DNA of 63,663 nucleotides, counting the filler, from Basidiobolus ranarum (taxonomy: Eukaryota), in the NCBI GenBank assembly GCA_040143965.1. It is 47 parts of 47 records of this genome, joined end to end, with 100 filler letters (N's around TTAATTAATTAA, not from the genome) between each part and the next. Parts side by side here need not be neighbours in the genome. Positions count along the whole stretch, not along the records: positions 19,070 to 20,327 come from JASJQH010012665.1; 46 more parts are not named here. The stretch is one strand, 5' to 3'. Positions 13,633-62,413 of the stretch are shown here, piece by piece; position 1 is the stretch's first letter; each line of letters opens with the position of its first letter. Position numbers and translations under genes: made by a program. A model generated the notes under the pieces. That model was not told the origin of the DNA and ran no database searches. It saw nothing but the letters and a program-made list of their open reading frames with translations.

Positions 13633-14892
13633 GAACTGGCTCGCTACCTGACATCACAAATGTAGTCCGCAAAGCTTCGTGACGCCAAATAACTTCGAGT
13701 ATAGACTGCTTTAACGCATCAACATTCAGATCACTGGATATTGCCAATGTAAGTGGCATGTTGTAGAAAGGGCTATTTGGAATTAGCTCATTCATAAACC
13801 AGAGCCTTTCTTGAGCAAAAGATAGTGGAAATTGATTTCTCAGTACTACTTGTTTGATATCAGGAATAATGTATCTACTTCCAGTATTAGCCTTATTGAT
13901 ATTGATAAGCCTTTCATTCAAGGATGCCACTGTAGGAGCCTCAAAAAGTAATCTCAAAGGTATTTCCTGGCCAAGTGCAGCGCGAATACGGGAAATTACT
14001 TTAGTGGCAGACAAAGAGTGACCTCCTAGTTCGAAGAAATTTCCAAGAATGCTAATCTTTTCGATACCCAGGATATCGGTAAAGATACTTGCGAGAGATT
14101 TCTCTAACTCCGTCCTTGGCTGGATAAAATTCTTTTGGTTTTCGATATAGGAAATTGTGGGGGCCGGCAATGCTTGACGATCAATTTTACCATTTGGTGT
14201 GAGTGGCAGAGAATCCATTACCACAAATGAGCTAGGAACCATGAATTTGGGCAGTGTAGCTGTGAGTTTGTCGCGCAGAGATTGAACATGGGGTTGATTT
14301 ATAACACCAGGCTCAGCTAAGCATTCATCTATGTTACCATAAGTATTCTGGTCAAATGCAGTTCCCCATTCATCCACTTTCTGAGTATACATTCCAGAGG
14401 TTGATTTGGAATCTACAACGACATAAGCGACTAGTTGTTTCTCACCAGATGAATGTTTACGAGCAACCACTACACATTCCTTAATTGAATCTTGTTGCAA
14501 GAGAGTGTTTTCTACTTCACCCAATTCGATTCTGTAGCCACGAATTTTCACCTGATGATCCATGCGCCCTACAAATTCAATATTACCATCACTTCTAAAA
14601 CAAGCCATATCTCCAGTACGGTATATTATCTCTCCATTACACTCAGAATTAGGATTGGTTACGAATTTTTGAGCCGTCATTTCGGGGTGATTGAGGTAGC
14701 CTCTGGCCAGTCCATCGCCAGCTACACATAACTCGCCGACAAATCCAATCGGAACTGGGTTGAGATTGTTGTCAAGAATATATACTCTGCTATTAGATAG
14801 TGGTTTTCCAATAGGAATATTGTTTGAGATTTGGTTAACCTCGTACCAAGTGGAGAAGGTGGTGTTCTCGGTAGGACCGTATACGTGTAATA
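13633..14892 (-). CDS. Non-ribosomal peptide synthetase, partial (C-terminal half of an A domain, PCP, start of a C domain)
   Basis: One open, intron-free frame across the whole contig: HVYGPTENT (A5), GELCVAGDGLARGYL (A6), YRTGD (A7), GRMDHQVKIRGYRIELGE (A8), LPKFMVP (A9), NGKIDR (A10), FFELGGHSL (PCP), PLSFAQERLWF and RHEALRT (C domain). Confidence 0.97.
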
Positions 14893-18969: not shown

Positions 18970-19102
18970 NNNNNNNNNNNNNNNNNNNNNNNNNNNNNNN
19001 NNNNNNNNNNNNNTTAATTAATTAANNNNNNNNNNNNNNNNNNNNNNNNNNNNNNNNNNNNNNNNNNNNCATAACCTATTGAAAATATTTAGGGAGAAAT
19101 AT

Positions 19103-19175
19103 TGGTCTGGCCAGGATTTGAACCTGGGACCTCCTACACTCTAGCAAGATGCTGTAACCACTGAGCTACCAGTCC
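19103..19175 (-). tRNA. tRNA-like sequence (pseudo-tRNA) inside the 3' end of an LTR, followed by a copia-type PBS GGTTATG (19070..19076)
   Basis: 73 nt, GGACTGG-TAGCTCAGTGG...CCAGG-TTCAAAT-CCTGG-CCAGACC-A. A and B boxes are intact; the anticodon stem is imperfect. Confidence 0.8.
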
Positions 19176-19871
19176 TTGTATGCTGTTGTTACAAATTTGG
19201 ATTATCAGACAAAAGCAATGGCAATTTTGGAGACAACATAATGTCTCAATCAACACAATATTTTGTACACATAAAATGCATAAGCAAACCTTGACTGTCA
19301 CCCAGTTTCATATCTACACCTTTCTTACATGTCTTGCAATCACCGAAACAAGGAAAGAAATGCAAATATCTCCAGAATTACTGGATGAATCATTACTAAA
19401 CTTTAGCGAGATCATTTCCCGTTATTATTCTACTTCAAATATAAATTTTAAAATGAACCAACCACAGAGACAAAAGTTACAAGCCATTGGAAACAGGCCG
19501 TCAGTATTATATACATGTTTTGAAATTAGCACACTCCCAAATCTGGCAGGAATGCCACTTGATTTTCCCCTGATCAACCCTATAAAAATAGCACCATCAA
19601 AATAAAATTAATCAGTCAATTTATCGGTGAATTAAGTCCCAAAATTGCACTCACCTCAGGAACCAGCCTCAATATATGGTAGCAGCAATTTATTAAGAAA
19701 GATACTCCACAGAAGAAAGCACAAAGAATCTAAAGAAGTAAAAGCAAAAGACAAGAAAGAATGTCATGGAACCAAGGAAACATAGAAATGTCAGATGCAT
19801 GGATGACTACAGTAACAGATATACTTGTGGAACTAAAGGAATAAGCAGCAGGACAAGAGGCCAGGATCCCA

Positions 19872-20297
19872 GTGACAACAGCCATGTATCATGGCAGACC
19901 AAATGAGAGTGTAGTAGCATGGTTAATACAGACAGAACAGGCCTTTAATACAAATTCAATCAGTGAAGACAAGAAGATGGCAGCAATAGGAAGCTATCTC
20001 CAAGATCTAGCATTGTCTTGGTATCAAGGAAGACTTCTACAAGCAGAAGCTCAGAACACTACTGCTTTCCCTAACTGGAGTGCATTCAAAACCAACATCA
20101 AAGCCTTCTTCTTACCACTCAACTTCCAGCTCATCCACAAAACACAGTTAGAAAACCTAAAGCAGAAGAACAAAGTCTTGGCATATGTCCAAAACTTCAA
20201 GAACATATTGGCACAGATTATTTCTATGGAAGAAGGTGACAAGATACACTACTTCCTTAGAGGACTAAGAACCAAAACCAGGCAAGAAGTAGTATAA
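19872..20297 (+). mobile_element. Ty3/gypsy gag (Retrotrans_gag-like capsid) fragment
   Basis: YHGRPNESVVAWL...YLQDLALSW...LKQKNKVLAYVQNF...FLRGL. Confidence 0.85.
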
Positions 20298-20427
20298 ACG
20301 TTAGGGTATGGATGTTCTGGTAAGGGTNNNNNNNNNNNNNNNNNNNNNNNNNNNNNNNNNNNNNNNNNNNNTTAATTAATTAANNNNNNNNNNNNNNNNN
20401 NNNNNNNNNNNNNNNNNNNNNNNNNNN

Positions 20428-30054: not shown

Positions 30055-31183
30055 AGAGGCATTATTATGTCCATTAGTCACTAGTCTTTGGCACTTTGTA
30101 GACTTTTTTGAATGCTTCCCATACCCACCATTTCATGACACCATACCATTTGTCGTTTGTCAGTAGTCTTTAGCACTGCGTAGACTTTGCTTTTAGCGTG
30201 TCACATACCGTATGTTTCTTGACACCATATTCTTCGTCATCTATCAGTAGTCTTTAGTACTGCGTATATATTTCTTGAAATGTTTACTATATCCGTCGTT
30301 TCTTGGCACCATACCTTTCGACATTTGAAGTAGTCTTTAGCACTTTGTAGACTCTCCTTTGTGTCTTTTACATACCCGTCGTTTGTTATTACTGTACCAT
30401 TCTTCATTGGTCGTTAAACTTTATTACTGCGTGGAATTTGCTTTAAACGTTTCTTATACCGTTCTTTCCTCGGCACCATACCATTTGTTGTTTGTCAGCA
30501 GTTTTTAATACTGCGTAGACTCTGCTTCAAGTGATTCCATGCCCTTCGTTTTTTGACACCATACATTTCGTTGTTTATCAGCAGTCTTTAGCACTGACCA
30601 GACTCTCCTCTTAGTGTGTTCCATAACGCTTGTTTCTTGGAACCATGCCTTTCGTCATTTGCCAGTAGTCTTTAGCACTTCGTAGGCTTTCCTATAAGTG
30701 TTTCCCATACCCGTCGTTTGCTAGCACTGTACTCTTTATCATTTGCCACTAGTCTGTAGCTTTTCATAAACTCTCCTTTAAGTGTTTTCAGCACAGATTG
30801 TTTCTTGGCACCATACCTTTGCCGTTTGTCAGTACTCTTTCGCACTGCGTAGACTCTGCTTTAAGTGCTTCCCATACCCATTGTTACTTGGCATCATTCC
30901 CATCGTCATATATAGGTAGTCTTTAGCACTACCAAGACTCTCCTTTTAGTGTGTCCCATACTCACTGTTAACTGGCTCCATACATTTCTTTGTTTATCAG
31001 CAGTCTTTAGCACTGAGCAGACTCTCCTCTTAGTGTTTCCCATACCGCCTGTTTCTTGGCACCATACCCTTTGTCATGTGTCAGTAATCTTTAGCACTTC
31101 GTAGGCTCTCCTACAAGTGTTTCCCGTACTCGTTGTTTCTTAGCGCCACACCCTTTGTTGTTTGTAACTAATCTTTAGTATTT
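30055..31183. repeat. Tandem array of about 13 diverged 83-84 bp units
   Basis: The anchor G(G/A)CACCATAC recurs at 30137, 30221, 30305, 30472, 30555, 30639, 30807, 30890, 30974, 31058 and 31142. Confidence 0.92.
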
Positions 31184-50251: not shown

Positions 50252-50533
50252 TGTTGAAAGTCTGGTGACTTGTGGTACAAGCAGTAATTCCCAAAGAGGA
50301 AAATATGGAGTATGGTGACTGCATCTGAACACAAAGTCTAAGGCCAATCAGTTGCTTATATAGCTGAAATGTCAAAGTACCATACATTGACAGACTAGGT
50401 TAAGGTTCCCTAGCAATATAGGCATAGCATACAAGGACTGGTAGCTCAGTGGTTAGAGCACCTTGCTAGAGGGAAGGAGGTCCCAGGTTCAAATCCTGGC
50501 CAGACCAATATTTCTCCCTAAATAATTTCAATA
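50252..50533 (+). mobile_element. Complete 282-bp LTR (TGTTGAAA...TTTCAATA) containing a tRNA-like unit
   Basis: Imperfect inverted ends, preceded by purines (GGGAA). The 3' portion is shared with 19077..19184 and 62170..62313. Confidence 0.75.
50435..50507 (+). tRNA. tRNA-like sequence in LTR (positions 34-36 read AGA; short variable loop; probably not a functional tRNA)
   Basis: GGACTGGTAGCTCAGTGGTTAGAGCACCTTGCTAGAGGGAAGGAGGTCCCAGGTTCAAATCCTGGCCAGACCA folds as a cloverleaf with A3-A70 and G31-G39 mismatches. Confidence 0.82.
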
Positions 50534-52428: not shown

Positions 52429-54484
52429 CTCTAACAAAAATAAAATCAATTTGATCTGGATTGGATCCACTCTCCAAAAGAGCAAAACCATCATAGAGCC
52501 ATCATAATATTGGTGGCTTGCATTCTGCCAGGGATTTTGATGATGTGCTGGTGGTTTCTTGATGGTATTTTAACAATATTCATACATGTTAAAATATTCA
52601 ACCTCAAATTTGGCATGCTTTATTCAATATCTCGCAATTTTTGAAAAAATATAATTTTTGAATGGCATATTATTGGGTTTACTGCTGTAGGAATTCAAAT
52701 TATCATACATGCCTTGAATTAGATATTTTAGGCTTTATATTCCAGCCATAATGAGAATCAAAAACCACAAGAATCTTGCTGTGTTTAGTCTCTACATATG
52801 CACATACTTGACTGATTAGACATAACTCAACAACATCAATATGCTTTACCAGNNNNNNNNNNNNNNNNNNNNNNNNNNNNNNNNNNNNNNNNNNNNTTAA
52901 TTAATTAANNNNNNNNNNNNNNNNNNNNNNNNNNNNNNNNNNNNNNNNNNNNTGACAAATTAGTGTTCAAGTGGTAATTGTGTAAAATTTGAGTTATGTT
53001 TTCTGCACATGTGTTGAGCCATAGTTCTCTGAGATTTTAGCCAATCATTCGCAACTATTTTGCGAGATCTTGAAATTTCACTTCTGAAACTGAAAAAATT
53101 GATTAAAATCAAATCTAACTTGATGATTTTATGATGGTAAGTAAACTGTCAATCCCAAATGGATTAAAATTGTGATGGTTTTCCTACAATAACAATCCCC
53201 AAATTTCTGTTTGGGATTGTATGTACAGCATACTAAAGCTCTGGTGTCATAGTTGAGTGACTCTTTAGCAGTTGACTAGTTGTTTCAGAACACTGCATTA
53301 ATTGCAATATTGCAACATTTTTGCCTTTCATGGCCTCTATAGCAACTTTGCAGCTTTTACTTCAATTGCTTAAAAATCATCATGGTGTTCTGCCTGAGAT
53401 TCCCTTGTTGTAATAATTGTGTTCAAATTTTTTTAGAAGGGTGTTCAACAGCTGTGAAAGTAGCCCTTTTGGAAGTTGATGGTCTTGAAGGTGTTTCTGT
53501 TGGAATTTGCTCAGCTGTTGCTTTACTACATTAATGGGAGATTACAATCTCTTCACTCGCACTACTGCTGGGAAGGTACATATCTGCCAAGTTGATTAAT
53601 ACTTCATCATTGCTTGAATTAACTTTGTGCATGCTAATGCCTTCTGAACAGTATACTGTAGTGCTAGACTGCTCATCAATTAAGTCCTCTGTTCTTGCTG
53701 TTTTTTTCTTTTTGTTCCAGCAGGCTTTTGCTTGGAAACTGATTTTGATTTAGATTTCCATAGCTCTTGAGTGGCATTGAGACTTTCAGATGGTAAACTT
53801 ATTGGCAAAATATGGGCTGTTTGGAGGACACAAACACTTAATTTGCATTTTATACCACTTTTTAAATTTGTAGCACCTTTGTGCTGCACAGGTTACATAG
53901 CCCAAAAGTTTATTTTAAGGACTATTTTGTTGTTTGTATATAAATAAACATGTATGGAGCTTAGTGCTAGTAGTATGTCAATATTTGTAAAACATGAGTA
54001 GAAAGCTTTTATCAATACTTTCTATTGGGAAAATATGGGCTGTTTGGAGGAACTTTAGAAAAGTGGAGTTGTGAATAGCTTTGTGAGATAATTATTTATT
54101 GACCAGAAATTAAGCATTTATACTTTTTGGTGGAAATACAGAAAACTAACACTGGGGTTGTGTTCAGAACATCTGTGGGAGTAAAATGAGCTATCTTTGG
54201 GGCAANNNNNNNNNNNNNNNNNNNNNNNNNNNNNNNNNNNNNNNNNNNNTTAATTAATTAANNNNNNNNNNNNNNNNNNNNNNNNNNNNNNNNNNNNNNN
54301 NNNNNCCCAAAGATAGCTCATTTTACTCCCACAGATGTTCTGAACACAACCCCAGTGTTAGTTTTCTGTATTTCCACCAAAATGTATAAATGCTCAATTT
54401 CTGGTCAATAAATAATAATCTCAGAAAGCTATTCACAACTCCACTATTCTAAAGTTCCTCCAAACAGCCCATATTTTCCCAATA

Positions 54485-55472
54485 GAGGCTTCATAGAAAA
54501 AATAATCACAAGCAGAGTCACTGTACAAAGCTACTAGCTGCCCAAAGCCAGGTGAATATCAACAATAATAAGTGCACAAAATTGACATTGGTTTTGCCCA
54601 CTGAGTCCCCTCACTGTACTTTGCCTCAAAGTTTTGGTAACACTGCCAAAAGGCAAGTTACCATGGAGTTATCACAGTTATATGACCAGAATGATGTAGA
54701 TAGAAATGCAACCTTAGTCAAACCAGTAAGTCAAGACAACTTTGAGGACATGCTGCTAGATATTGAACTTAGCTATTCCAGTACTGATGGTAGTATATCA
54801 GAAGTGGAAGAAGAAGACCATGGTATTGTTATAGACTCTTTGTTATTGGCAAGCAATAGTCCACTCATAACACTTACAGTAAAGGAAGCAGCTTAGGTTA
54901 TTGAGGAGTGGAGAGTTTAATTTAATCTTAGCAACCAGGTGTTCATTGGTTTTCTTAAACTTTTATCACAGTTGATTGGCAACTGTTGCTTGCCACAGAC
55001 CTGGTACAAGTAGAAAAGACTTTTCCATTGTATGACTTTTAATCCTTCAGTATTTAATCTACCTTCATGTCCAAATGCTTGTTTGGCTTTCACCAGTGAT
55101 CTGAAAAACCTGAAGTCATAAACTGTTTGAACATAATTGGCATTCACTTAATCAGGTAAATATTGTTCATGTTTGGCTTACATACCATTGATTCCTTATC
55201 TGAAAGTTTTGATGAAATTACCCAAATATAGAGCATTGATCTAATACCAAAGTACTCACCATAAAGCTGATGGTATCACCAATCCACTTGATGGATATCA
55301 CTACTAAAATCTGAAAAGTCAAGGTTTCCTTGCAAACATGTATGATCATGCATTTGCATTGGCTCTGGATGATTTCTCACTAAACAAATATATCATTGGA
55401 AAGGCTTGCTGGCCAATAATTTTAATTAACTTGAATCTTCCCCGTTCTGAACAGTATAAGAGTCATAATATT
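54485..55472 (+). mobile_element. CACTA transposase, N-terminus through the tnp2 domain, degenerate
   Basis: Bridges the CYESQ/HCTK region to YIPLIP...ACWPIILINLN (homologous to 25858..26170). Confidence 0.82.
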
Positions 55473-60669: not shown

Positions 60670-62195
60670 TATATTTATATCTATATTGTGTTGAAATTAG
60701 CTTTATCCAAACACCTATATAGTCTTATATAGCTTAGTATTTTGTTTTCTTATATTGAACTAAGATATCTCCCATTATTCTCATGAGGAATTTACTTAAA
60801 AGTTTGAAGATATATAGATTTTTCAAAGAGGTCCCAAACTTTGTACACATGTTCCTGGGACCTTCCTTAACACATTCTACACATTAGTTTGTCTATATCT
60901 TGACAAAACTATAAATGTCAGCGTTCAACTCAATGAATCAATAAGTGGGAACCACCAAAATCTNNNNNNNNNNNNNNNNNNNNNNNNNNNNNNNNNNNNN
61001 NNNNNNNTTAATTAATTAANNNNNNNNNNNNNNNNNNNNNNNNNNNNNNNNNNNNNNNNNNNNTTCCTTCTGGTGATGAAGCGTCTCTATGTTTGCTCGA
61101 TTGAAAGCAAAGTGCAAGGCTAGGTGCCAGTGATAACTCTTGGACATGTTAGCGAGTCTTGCTATTGTCCAAGACAACGAATTTTGAACTTTGACCTTCA
61201 GGTTTCATCCTTAACTGAGGCTGAAAGCGAATTGTTGCATATTTTTTCTTAAAATGTTACGATATGAATACTACTACGGTTTGTGATGCAGCAATGGTGG
61301 GCTCTAGGCAATGCTAGTGAACTGTTTGAGCCAATACCATTTCGAGGGAAAAAAGTCTCATATAACTCCCTTGCGTTGTTTGTTCCAGTAGCCTTTACCC
61401 AACTTCACGTAACATATTAATGACACTAGGCCACGTGTGTACCATTCTATGTCACTCCTGTTGCTACGAACAAGCATTGAAGCCCCCTCTTTCACATAGA
61501 AGGCCAATTTACTATTAAACTGTCACCACTTTCACATTGCATCAAACTGATTCGATTTTGGCGCCATTCATTTACAAATTGTGATAAATTGATAATCACC
61601 AAACTAGGTAGATTCAATCTTCTGTAAGGTATAGTTTACTTTCAAGTAGATGATGGACCGAGTATGCCACTGATTTCAAATTTAATTTTATAATAGTGGC
61701 AATTTCAATTCTGTTTGGCATTGGTGATGAAGGCAATATTTTCAAAATACTTCTTTGAAATAAACATGCTGTACGAGTGGCTTTTATGGCTGATTATGGA
61801 TTTAAACCAGTTGCCCTACATTTAACGGTACTCCTAACATCAAATATATTGATGGCGAGTAGCTTTGTTTACTTGACTCAAAAATGAATGCTGTTGAAGT
61901 TAATACAGTCAGCCTATGAGTCATTCTTTTGCATAGCTAAATATAGGTGCCTAAGAGTACAAACTAAAAATCAGTTTGGACACAGATAAACAAGGCTTCC
62001 AGTGCAAAAGGGTCAGCAGGCTCCTTTTCATCATGAGAAAACTATTGGTCAAGCTCCCTGCCTTCCAGCTGTGGAAATATTTTGGGAATCTGTTGGAAGC
62101 GGTTTGGAGAACTAGAAAGAGTTCATGGTTTTCATTTTTGTCAGGAGAGAAGCAAACAAATGTATAGAATATTGAACTTATTTAGGGAGAAATAA

Positions 62196-62268
62196 TGGTC
62201 TGGCTAGGATTTGAACCTGGGACCTCCTTCACTCTAGCAAGGAGCTCTAACCACTGAGCTACCAGTCC
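62196..62268 (-). tRNA. tRNA-like sequence in LTR (third copy; LTR part 62170..62313)
   Basis: Same 73-nt unit and flanks as 50435..50507. Confidence 0.82.
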
Positions 62269-62413
62269 TTGTATGCTATGCCTATATTGCTAGGGAATCT
62301 GAACCTAGTCTGTNNNNNNNNNNNNNNNNNNNNNNNNNNNNNNNNNNNNNNNNNNNNTTAATTAATTAANNNNNNNNNNNNNNNNNNNNNNNNNNNNNNN
62401 NNNNNNNNNNNNN

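What the first reader, a model, noticed from the sequence alone, without database searches (positions are those of the whole stretch)
19070..19184. The tRNA-bearing LTR abuts a copia-type half-tRNA primer binding site
Seen: on the minus strand the LTR end TTTTCAATA is followed immediately by GGTTATG, after which the contig ends. Known: GGTTATG(G/A)GCCC is the PBS of copia-group elements primed by an internally cleaved tRNA-iMet. Inference: this fixes the orientation (tRNA unit sense, in R/U5) and ties the family to Ty1/copia machinery. A Pol III transcript starting at the tRNA unit of the 5' LTR would point straight into the PBS. Only 7 nt are visible.
Basis: partly seen in the sequence, partly recalled or inferred. 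Interest (0 to 1): 0.7.

Follow-up and report, generated by a model that had tools for sequence, protein, structure and literature searches.

The report
tRNA-bearing mini-retrotransposon with helper hybrids
This is the broken end of a tiny gene-less jumping element of a kind already described (Helenus), here in a Basidiobolus-like fungus, whose genomic scars point to the larger elements that copy it and suggest that its tRNA-like piece really attracts the tRNA transcription machinery.

Summary
Confirmed. The 7 bases open a 13-nt primer site matching the anticodon arm of this genome's initiator tRNA. In 12 extendable sister copies it leads into a 51-nt gene-less interior in 9 and into Copia leader/gag in 3. 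The element is a Helenus-type TRIM (Kojima 2024): LTR about 282 nt, 5-bp TSDs. The host is Basidiobolus-like, a name absent from that paper's supplement. The scan noted this TRIM and the tRNA-targeting neighbour before, on other contigs of this genome.

Two points go further. (1) Six of 13 TRIM interiors follow a Copia LTR, joined at the primer site, against 0 of 87 foreign LTRs at Copia primer sites (p=1.4e-6). This names three likely helper families and suggests strand exchange inside shared particles. (2) In the window a Ty3/gypsy element sits 11 nt before the tRNA unit. It does so in 4 TRIM LTRs, one origin rejected, and 9-12 nt before 19 host tRNA genes. That is indirect evidence that Pol III factors bind the unit. 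No reads or RNA could be checked.

The parts
19070..19076 (-). First 7 nt of the 13-nt primer binding site, complementary to the anticodon arm of tRNA-iMet; cut by the contig end
19077..19186 (-). 3' 110 nt of a Helenus-type TRIM LTR (full LTR 282-283 nt in sister copies); inferred R/U5 part
19103..19175 (-). 73-nt tRNA-like unit (Rfam tRNA 48.6 bits; ARAGORN gives no isotype); A3.A70 and 31.39 mispairs are family-wide
19158..19168 (-). Box A motif of the internal Pol III promoter (consensus recalled; Kojima's TRGCY/YGG description fits)
19114..19124 (-). Box B motif (GGTTC core)
19183..19186 (-). tRNA-side copy of the 4-bp target duplication of the gypsy insertion (positions -11 to -8 from the unit's first G; one substitution in this copy)
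19187..19674 (+). 5' LTR (488 nt) of a tRNA-targeting Ty3/gypsy element, pointing away from the tRNA unit
19677..19686 (+). Gypsy primer binding site, complementary to the 3' end of the same tRNA-iMet (10 of 10 nt)
19845..20297 (+). Open stretch of the gypsy gag (Retrotrans_gag E 4e-12, Ty3_capsid E 5e-7), bounded by stop codons
50252..50533 (+). Second copy on another contig: complete TRIM LTR preceded by the last 5 nt of the polypurine tract (a 3' LTR); tRNA unit 50435-50507
62170..62313 (-). Third copy on another contig: 3' half of a TRIM LTR, no primer site after it; tRNA unit 62196-62268
18970..19069 (.). Artificial spacer between unrelated contigs (N44-TTAATTAATTAA-N44); not biological

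Best explanation
The stretch is the 3' part of an LTR and the start of the primer site of a Helenus-type TRIM (LTR 282-283 nt, interior 51 nt, about 615 nt in all). Shown: the anatomy, the primer-site match to the host initiator tRNA, 5-bp TSDs on solo LTRs, three Copia families with the same primer site, and hybrids joined at that site. Inferred working: TFIIIC/TFIIIB bind boxes A and B of the tRNA-like unit, Pol III starts a few bases upstream of the unit and reads through the primer site, interior and second LTR; the short RNA is packaged in Copia particles, primed by the 5' 39-nt half of tRNA-iMet, copied and integrated by Copia enzymes. Because helper and parasite share only the primer site, the second (plus-strand) transfer often pairs a Copia LTR with a TRIM interior or the reverse, leaving hybrids and mixed concatemers. 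Later a Ty3/gypsy element that homes on Pol III start sites treated this LTR as a tRNA gene and inserted 11 nt before the unit, displacing U3. Odds by step: Helenus-type TRIM 0.95; Copia-driven 0.9; hybrids real DNA 0.85 and made during reverse transcription 0.65; unit bound Pol III factors when hit 0.75; unit actually transcribed 0.65.
For: Continuation into a TRIM interior in 9 of 12 copies, 7 of them through the polypurine tract. LTR 283, interior 51 in L082. Solo LTRs: 5-bp TSD exact in 5 of 11, one mismatch in 3, none in 3. Primer site pairs with nt 27-39 of tRNA-iMet, 4 genes found. Hybrids: 6 of 13 interiors after a Copia LTR (A: L163, L164; B: L158, L162; C: L157, L009), 3 of 12 TRIM LTR ends before a Copia leader (L083 DUF4219 E 2e-10; L084; L089), all switching within the primer site; control 0 of 87, Fisher p=1.4e-6. 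In L158 the Copia LTR is a 3' LTR (pol end and purine tract precede it) yet a primer site follows. In L163 the two flanks are collinear halves of one Copia coding region. Gypsy: 19 host tRNA genes at 9-12 nt and 4 TRIM units at 11 nt among 43 contigs; 2 more junctions from the U3 side at the same site (L023, L058); AU test rejects one origin of the four, p=0.0067. Ty3 needs TFIIIB and ignores TFIIIC-only sites (PMC5911963, passage).
Against: The window contig ends after 7 nt, so what follows this copy is unknown (by sister counts about 3 in 4 TRIM interior, 1 in 4 Copia). No reads or RNA were available, so hybrids are not checked against raw data and transcription is not shown. No hybrid has both outer flanks with a TSD; the one full-length TRIM with both flanks (L082) has a damaged 3' end and no TSD. 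Adding four TRIM interiors found through LTR searches (L023, L086, L087, L088) lowers the hybrid share to 6 of 17. The control set is 91 of 540 sites, taken from the longest contigs, not at random. The gypsy's tethering to TFIIIB is by analogy; its TSD is 4 bp, Ty3's is 5 bp. Ty3 also inserts at weakly transcribed and relic tRNA genes, so an insertion shows factor binding, not output. Lack of T4 runs on the sense strand is not significant (p 0.30-0.42).
Confidence: 0.8

Rival explanations
1. The tRNA-bearing LTR belongs to an autonomous Copia family, and the TRIM is its deletion derivative.
For: 3 of 12 LTR-plus-primer-site copies continue into Copia leader/gag.
Against: Those 3 interiors belong to two different Copia families (A, B) that normally carry their own unrelated LTRs (60 of 60 classifiable A and B sites). 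9 of 12 copies have the 51-nt interior. The switch falls at the primer site, and the reciprocal hybrids exist.
Confidence: 0.05
2. The hybrids are real but arose in the chromosome, by microhomology recombination of TRIM cDNA or one-LTR circles with genomic Copia primer sites, not by strand transfer in a particle.
For: L164 (Copia LTR, primer site, TRIM interior, TRIM LTR, primer site, Copia leader) is exactly what a crossover of a circle at the primer site gives. Complex elements are mostly ascribed to recombination (PMC1950507, passages).
Against: Only 13-15 nt are shared. L158 has a primer site after a Copia 3' LTR, where the chromosome offers none. Copia families share the same site yet show 0 of 87 cross-family joints. 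L163 sits as one unit in a single target.
Confidence: 0.2
3. The hybrids are assembly or amplification chimeras in a fragmented, repeat-rich assembly.
For: 13,754 contigs, many ending inside these repeats; no reads checked.
Against: The joints share only 13-15 nt, four carry their own substitutions inside the site (L157, L158, L162, L084), all nine sit at the same biologically meaningful site, and the far more numerous Copia families show none.
Confidence: 0.12
4. The gypsy insertions in the TRIM come from one old event that was later duplicated, or from a sequence preference, and say nothing about Pol III factors.
For: All five TRIM-associated LTRs in the tree fall in one 10-row subclade; all targets share the same sequence; the genome holds duplicated loci (L053, L070).
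Against: AU test rejects one clade, p=0.0067; L002's LTR is 98.0% like one at a tRNA-Arg gene but 91-95% like the other three. The four TRIM LTRs have different 3' flanks. Host targets share distance, not sequence.
Confidence: 0.15
5. The unit is a working tRNA-Ser(AGA) gene carried by the element.
For: ARAGORN calls sister copies tRNA-Ser(aga); D and T stems are kept.
Against: A3.A70 in 20 of 20 distinct copies and a 31.39 mispair in 21 of 22; no long variable arm, unlike the host's 82-nt Ser(AGA) gene, with which it shares 41 of 73 positions.
Confidence: 0.05

Closest known systems
Fungal Helenus TRIMs (TRIMp3), Kojima 2024, PMC10886601 (read: abstract, methods, results, discussion, conclusions; supplement searched by terms only)
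   Same: Two LTRs with a tRNA-like unit near the 3' end, boxes A and B kept, short non-coding interior with primer site and purine tract, anticodon-loop tRNA-iMet primer site (GGTTATGAGCCC occurs 48 times in the supplement), 5-bp TSD, many solo LTRs, Copia families sharing the primer site.
   Different: Host is Basidiobolus-like; the paper lists rusts and three Agaricomycetes, and its supplement has no Basidiobolus, Zoopago-, Mucor or Conidiobolus entry. Family-specific motifs were not found in the supplement (7 of 7 longer motifs absent). The 51-nt interior is short. The paper describes neither hybrids with Copia at the primer site nor gypsy insertions at the unit, and says promoter function and helper dependence are unproven.
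Cassandra TRIMs (Kalendar 2020, PMC7215508, passages)
   Same: Small-RNA promoter in the LTR; tandem arrays with shared LTRs; template switching during reverse transcription named as one route.
   Different: 5S-derived, primed by the tRNA 3' end (TGGTATCAGAGC); the arrays described are of Cassandra units alone.
Ty5 and Drosophila copia half-tRNA priming (as cited in PMC10886601; 39-nt fragment length recalled)
   Same: Primer site complementary to the anticodon arm of tRNA-iMet.
   Different: Those are autonomous; this element codes for nothing.
Ty3 of S. cerevisiae, Tj1, DGLT-A (PMC5911963, PMC6673722, PMC5006619; passages)
   Same: Gypsy-type element, tRNA-iMet 3'-end primer site, insertion in a narrow window upstream of tRNA genes in both orientations, short integrase tail without a chromodomain hit.
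   Different: 4-bp TSD against Ty3's 5 bp; host is an early-diverging fungus; no RT tree was built, so kinship to the Ty3 clade proper is untested.
Template-switch complexes of Triticeae (Sabot and Schulman 2007, PMC1950507, passages)
   Same: Fused elements sharing an LTR, ascribed to co-packaged RNAs.
   Different: There the switch is between R regions of related elements; here unrelated elements are joined at the primer site only.

Membership tests
Helenus (fungal TRIMp3) | TRIM: two LTRs, under 1 kb, no coding capacity | tested here: met
   LTR 283 + interior 51 + LTR in L082; second LTR start follows the purine tract in 6 of 7 complete interiors, cut after 4 nt in L085
Helenus (fungal TRIMp3) | tRNA-like sequence with boxes A and B inside the LTR | tested here: met
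   Rfam tRNA 48.6 bits, E 5e-9; boxes located
Helenus (fungal TRIMp3) | Primer binding site right after the 5' LTR, mostly anticodon loop of tRNA-iMet | tested here: met
   13-nt match to nt 27-39 of the host tRNA-iMet; 12 of 12 extendable copies within one mismatch
Helenus (fungal TRIMp3) | Polypurine tract before the 3' LTR | tested here: met
   GAGGGGGAA or variants
Helenus (fungal TRIMp3) | 5-bp target site duplication | tested here: met
   5 exact, 3 with one mismatch, 3 none of 11 solo LTRs; none around the one full-length copy with both flanks
Helenus (fungal TRIMp3) | tRNA-like unit is not a functional tRNA | tested here: inconclusive
   Fixed mispairs and wrong architecture for Ser; no expression data
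Helenus (fungal TRIMp3) | Transcribed by RNA polymerase III | not testable with these tools
   Only indirect: gypsy insertions at -11. Not shown for published Helenus either
Helenus (fungal TRIMp3) | Common descent with rust Helenus families | not tested
   Supplement sequences were searched by motif, not aligned; Kojima regards Helenus as a design that arose several times
Autonomous Ty1/Copia | gag-pol between two copies of this LTR | tested here: not met
   9 of 12 copies have a non-coding interior; the 3 with gag are hybrids with families that have other LTRs
Ty3-like Pol III-targeting gypsy (neighbour) | Ty3/gypsy gag and integrase | tested here: met
   Ty3_capsid and Retrotrans_gag; integrase in L042 is 51-52% identical to polyproteins with gypsy-type RT and RNase H domains
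Ty3-like Pol III-targeting gypsy (neighbour) | Insertion within a narrow window upstream of tRNA genes | tested here: met
   23 of 43 contigs at 9-12 nt; 2 U3-side TRIM junctions; 3 at 11 (decayed gene), 17 and 38 nt; 15 show no tRNA-side junction
Ty3-like Pol III-targeting gypsy (neighbour) | 5-bp TSD as in Ty3 | tested here: not met
   Exactly 4 bp in 7 of 12 LTRs with two outer flanks, 5 in 1, 3 or fewer in 4
Ty3-like Pol III-targeting gypsy (neighbour) | Integrase tethered by TFIIIB | not testable with these tools
   Analogy only

The most novel reading that the evidence does not exclude
This genome records both missing links in the life cycle of tRNA-promoter TRIMs. About half of the TRIM interiors were finished with a helper's LTR by intermolecular plus-strand transfer at a shared half-tRNA primer site, which shows co-packaging with three unrelated Copia families and means the primer site alone is the parasite's entry ticket. 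A 4-bp-TSD gypsy that homes on Pol III start sites repeatedly inserts 11 nt before the TRIM's tRNA unit, a natural footprint of TFIIIB on a Helenus promoter and a case of one retroelement parasitising another's borrowed promoter. Hybrids at the primer site could be used in any genome to pair TRIMs such as Helenus or Cassandra with their helpers.
Probability: 0.5. Interest if true: 0.7.

Novelty: new member of a known kind. Interest (0 to 1): 0.5.

Why it matters
The primer site itself is the commonest type in fungal Helenus, so the finding as written is ordinary apart from the host lineage. It matters through two questions that Kojima 2024 leaves open: whether the tRNA-like unit is a working Pol III promoter, and how a TRIM depends on a helper with which it shares no LTR similarity. 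Gypsy insertions at the same distance as at host tRNA genes give in-genome evidence on the first. Hybrids joined at the primer site name candidate helpers and give a search recipe for the second. A practical point: well over a hundred of these units will inflate tRNA-Ser(AGA) counts in this genome.

Tried and rejected
T-run depletion on the sense strand as a sign of Pol III read-through: no T4 run in 4 of 4 copies, but shuffles give p 0.30-0.42; dropped. Counting Pol III units by a box B pattern: 1307 against 1075 in the control; uninformative, so no rate of gypsy hits per TRIM unit versus host gene is given. TSDs around hybrids: none testable, because of contig ends, nested insertions or a deletion of about 50 bp. 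Insertion of a whole TRIM between a Copia LTR and its primer site: rejected, as no 5' TRIM LTR follows the Copia LTR in the six cases and L083 has no Copia LTR upstream. A second TRIM subfamily with a different U3, my first reading of L001-L004: rejected once the same sequence was found beside host tRNA genes and before a gag. Parent tRNA of the unit: best of the host tRNAs seen in fetched loci is 49 of 73 positions; unresolved, and the set is incomplete. A new Pol III gene at L060/L051: no Rfam match; it is an older LTR of the same gypsy. Rust-fungus host, suggested by the paper: not supported. The S. osmophilus preprint (10.1101/2022.12.06.519325, passages) and the sugar-beet TRIM preprint (10.64898/2026.03.01.708851, passages) gave no direct precedent for primer-site hybrids; the review PMC6894440 (passages) describes the second transfer as within one template. 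Searches for precedents (and 47 for tRNA targeting in these fungi) found none describing these two points, but the library lacks most subscription papers and Repbase Reports. Du et al. 2010 (LTR swapping in soybean) was seen only as a reference title.

Full report
Setting. The window is not one chromosome stretch. It is 47 contigs of about 1.26 kb joined by artificial spacers. The finding lies at the very end of contig 19070-20327, which is G000:C12665 in a 65-Mb, 13,754-contig assembly. An ammonium transporter on another contig of the window is 91% identical to a Basidiobolus meristosporus protein; the best hit outside that genus is 63%. The host is therefore Basidiobolus-like (Zoopagomycota; phylum placement recalled).

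The observation. On the minus strand a 73-nt tRNA-like unit (19175-19103; Rfam 48.6 bits) is followed by 26 nt ending in CAATA, then GGTTATG and the spacer. The 25-nt junction pattern has 13 exact matches in the genome and 0 in the control. Twelve can be read further: 10 continue as GGTTATGAGCCC, 2 with one mismatch. A pattern search gave 5 hits, of which 4 are tRNA-Met(CAT) genes of initiator type and 1 is a Copia primer site. The 13-nt site is the exact complement of sequential positions 27-39 of that tRNA, the half-tRNA priming of Ty5 and copia that Kojima cites.

What the element is. In 9 of the 12 copies the primer site opens a non-coding interior: 7 run through a purine tract, 1 is cut by a contig end, 1 is interrupted after 9 nt. 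In L082 the LTR is 283 nt, the interior 51 nt, and the tRNA unit starts at LTR position 185; its two LTRs differ at 10 of 283 columns. There are 180 exact matches to a 20-nt LTR start and 140 to a 23-nt piece at the start of the unit, against 12 to an interior pattern, so most copies are solo or broken LTRs. Of 11 solo LTRs with both flanks, 5 have an exact 5-bp TSD, 3 one mismatch and 3 none. The unit keeps boxes A and B and the D and T stems but has A3.A70 in 20 of 20 distinct copies and a 31.39 mispair in 21 of 22, and it lacks the long arm of the host's Ser(AGA) gene. All testable features of fungal Helenus (PMC10886601; main text read to the conclusions) are met. The same primer site occurs 48 times in its supplement. 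No Basidiobolus, Zoopago-, Mucor, Conidiobolus or Rhizophagus entry is there (searched by terms, figures not seen).

Hybrids with Copia. The primer site pattern occurs 540 times (control 0). I examined 91 of these: the first 92 listed, less one cognate TRIM site already held (C1835). In 87 both sides could be classed, and all 87 join an LTR to the interior of its own Copia family (49 A, 11 B, 27 C; my labels); 2 had an unclassed upstream side and 2 were too short. The TRIM behaves differently. Of 13 interiors in the 12 loci found by an interior pattern, 7 follow a TRIM LTR and 6 follow a Copia LTR, two from each family. Fisher p is 1.4e-6; with four more interiors found through LTR searches the share is 6 of 17. 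In reverse, 3 of 12 TRIM LTR ends lead into a Copia leader and gag start (B: L083, L084; A: L089; DUF4219 E 2e-10 for L083). All nine joints, at eight loci, switch within the primer site. L164 reads Copia LTR, primer site, TRIM interior, TRIM LTR, primer site, Copia leader. In L158 the Copia LTR is a 3' LTR, with the end of pol and a purine tract before it, and yet a primer site and TRIM unit follow. In L163 the flanks are collinear halves of one Copia coding region with about 50 bp lost. My reading, which is inference from the established steps of reverse transcription: the plus-strand strong-stop DNA carries LTR plus primer site and anneals by the primer site alone, so a helper's strong-stop DNA can finish a TRIM minus strand in the same particle, and repeated rounds give mixed concatemers. 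A parasite nearly always shares its particle with helper RNA, which fits the asymmetry. Rivals are chromosomal microhomology recombination, which explains L164 well and L158 poorly, and assembly chimeras, which fit badly with mutated 13-nt joints and the clean control. No hybrid kept both flanks, so the decisive TSD test failed for lack of data.

The neighbour. Upstream of the unit the window does not hold the TRIM's U3. It holds a 488-nt LTR (19187-19674, plus strand), a primer site matching the 3' end of the same tRNA-iMet and a Ty3-type gag. The family's integrase has no chromodomain hit and resembles gypsy polyproteins. I examined 43 contigs from two searches (30 loci each out of 40 and 42 matches). 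An LTR end lies 9-12 nt before a host tRNA gene in 19 and 11 nt before the TRIM unit in 4; 2 show the U3 side of the same TRIM site; 3 lie at 11 (decayed gene), 17 and 38 nt; 15 show no tRNA-side junction. Two of the 19 (L053, L070) share flanks and may be one event. Both orientations occur. The TSD is exactly 4 bp in 7 of 12 LTRs with two outer flanks. A genome-wide pattern finds the same 4 TRIM junctions and no more. In a tree of 33 LTR pieces of at least 170 nt the four do not group; holding them together is rejected, p=0.0067, though all lie in one 10-row subclade. Ty3 needs intact boxes A and B and TFIIIB, skips TFIIIC-only sites, and still hits relic or weak tRNA genes (PMC5911963, passages). 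If this gypsy is guided the same way, which is not shown, the TRIM unit was bound by Pol III factors at least several times. The site at -11 to -8 also suggests a start upstream of the first G.

Earlier notes of this scan. Consulted after these readings were formed. Several notes on other contigs of this genome call the element Helenus-type, two note the tRNA-targeting LTR from two cases each, and one describes a tRNA module in a Copia 5' LTR as a possible new layout. The counts here explain the last as a hybrid. A word search for hybrids at the primer site found no note.

Verdict. The feature is real and is a new member of a known kind. Interest 0.5 rests on the two by-products, hybrids that name helpers and a natural Pol III footprint, both indirect and unchecked against reads or RNA. 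My searches found neither in print, within a library that lacks most subscription journals; supplements of the two bioRxiv preprints were not seen.

Noticed in passing
whole window: The window is 47 unrelated contigs of about 1.26 kb joined by N44-TTAATTAATTAA-N44 spacers; adjacency across spacers means nothing.
   Followed up: yes
L005, L008, L013, L021, L037, L044, L046, L047, L050, L052-L054, L069, L070, L072, L073, L076, L081: Host targets of the gypsy are nearly all Arg(CCT/CCG/TCG), Pro(CGG), Thr(CGT) and Leu(CAG) genes. None of the clustered tRNA genes seen in L121-L125 was among the targets.
   Followed up: no
L121, L122, L124: Dense tRNA gene clusters (6 genes in 2.0-2.5 kb, 4 in 1.2 kb), each holding an initiator tRNA gene followed by tRNA-Glu(TTC).
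   Followed up: no
L046:1497-2460, L031, L048, L063: Gypsy LTRs stacked a few bases apart, as expected from repeated insertion at one target.
   Followed up: partly
L052, L053, L070: Near-identical tRNA-Pro loci carry the gypsy LTR at the same spot, in opposite orientation in L052; suggests duplicated or allelic loci hit independently.
   Followed up: no
L014, L018, L019, L024, L025, L027, L029: Many contigs begin 1-5 nt before the TRIM's pre-tRNA stretch, close to the gypsy insertion point, perhaps an assembly-graph fork or further unassembled insertions.
   Followed up: no
L009:1061-1527: TRIM tandem with a shared LTR whose first LTR comes from Copia family C.
   Followed up: partly
L082:1236-1850 and many LTRs: Frequent C-to-T and G-to-A changes, including terminal CA to TA and CCGG to CCAG/CTGG, suggest methylation-driven decay; not quantified.
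   Followed up: no
window 13633-14892 (-): Fragment of a non-ribosomal peptide synthetase (adenylation, carrier and start of condensation domain, by eye).
   Followed up: no
window 30107-31113: Array of about 11 copies of an 84-nt unit.
   Followed up: no
window 54021-54486: The 225-nt 'inverted repeat' spans a spacer: two contigs start and end in the same repeat. It is an artefact of concatenation.
   Followed up: partly
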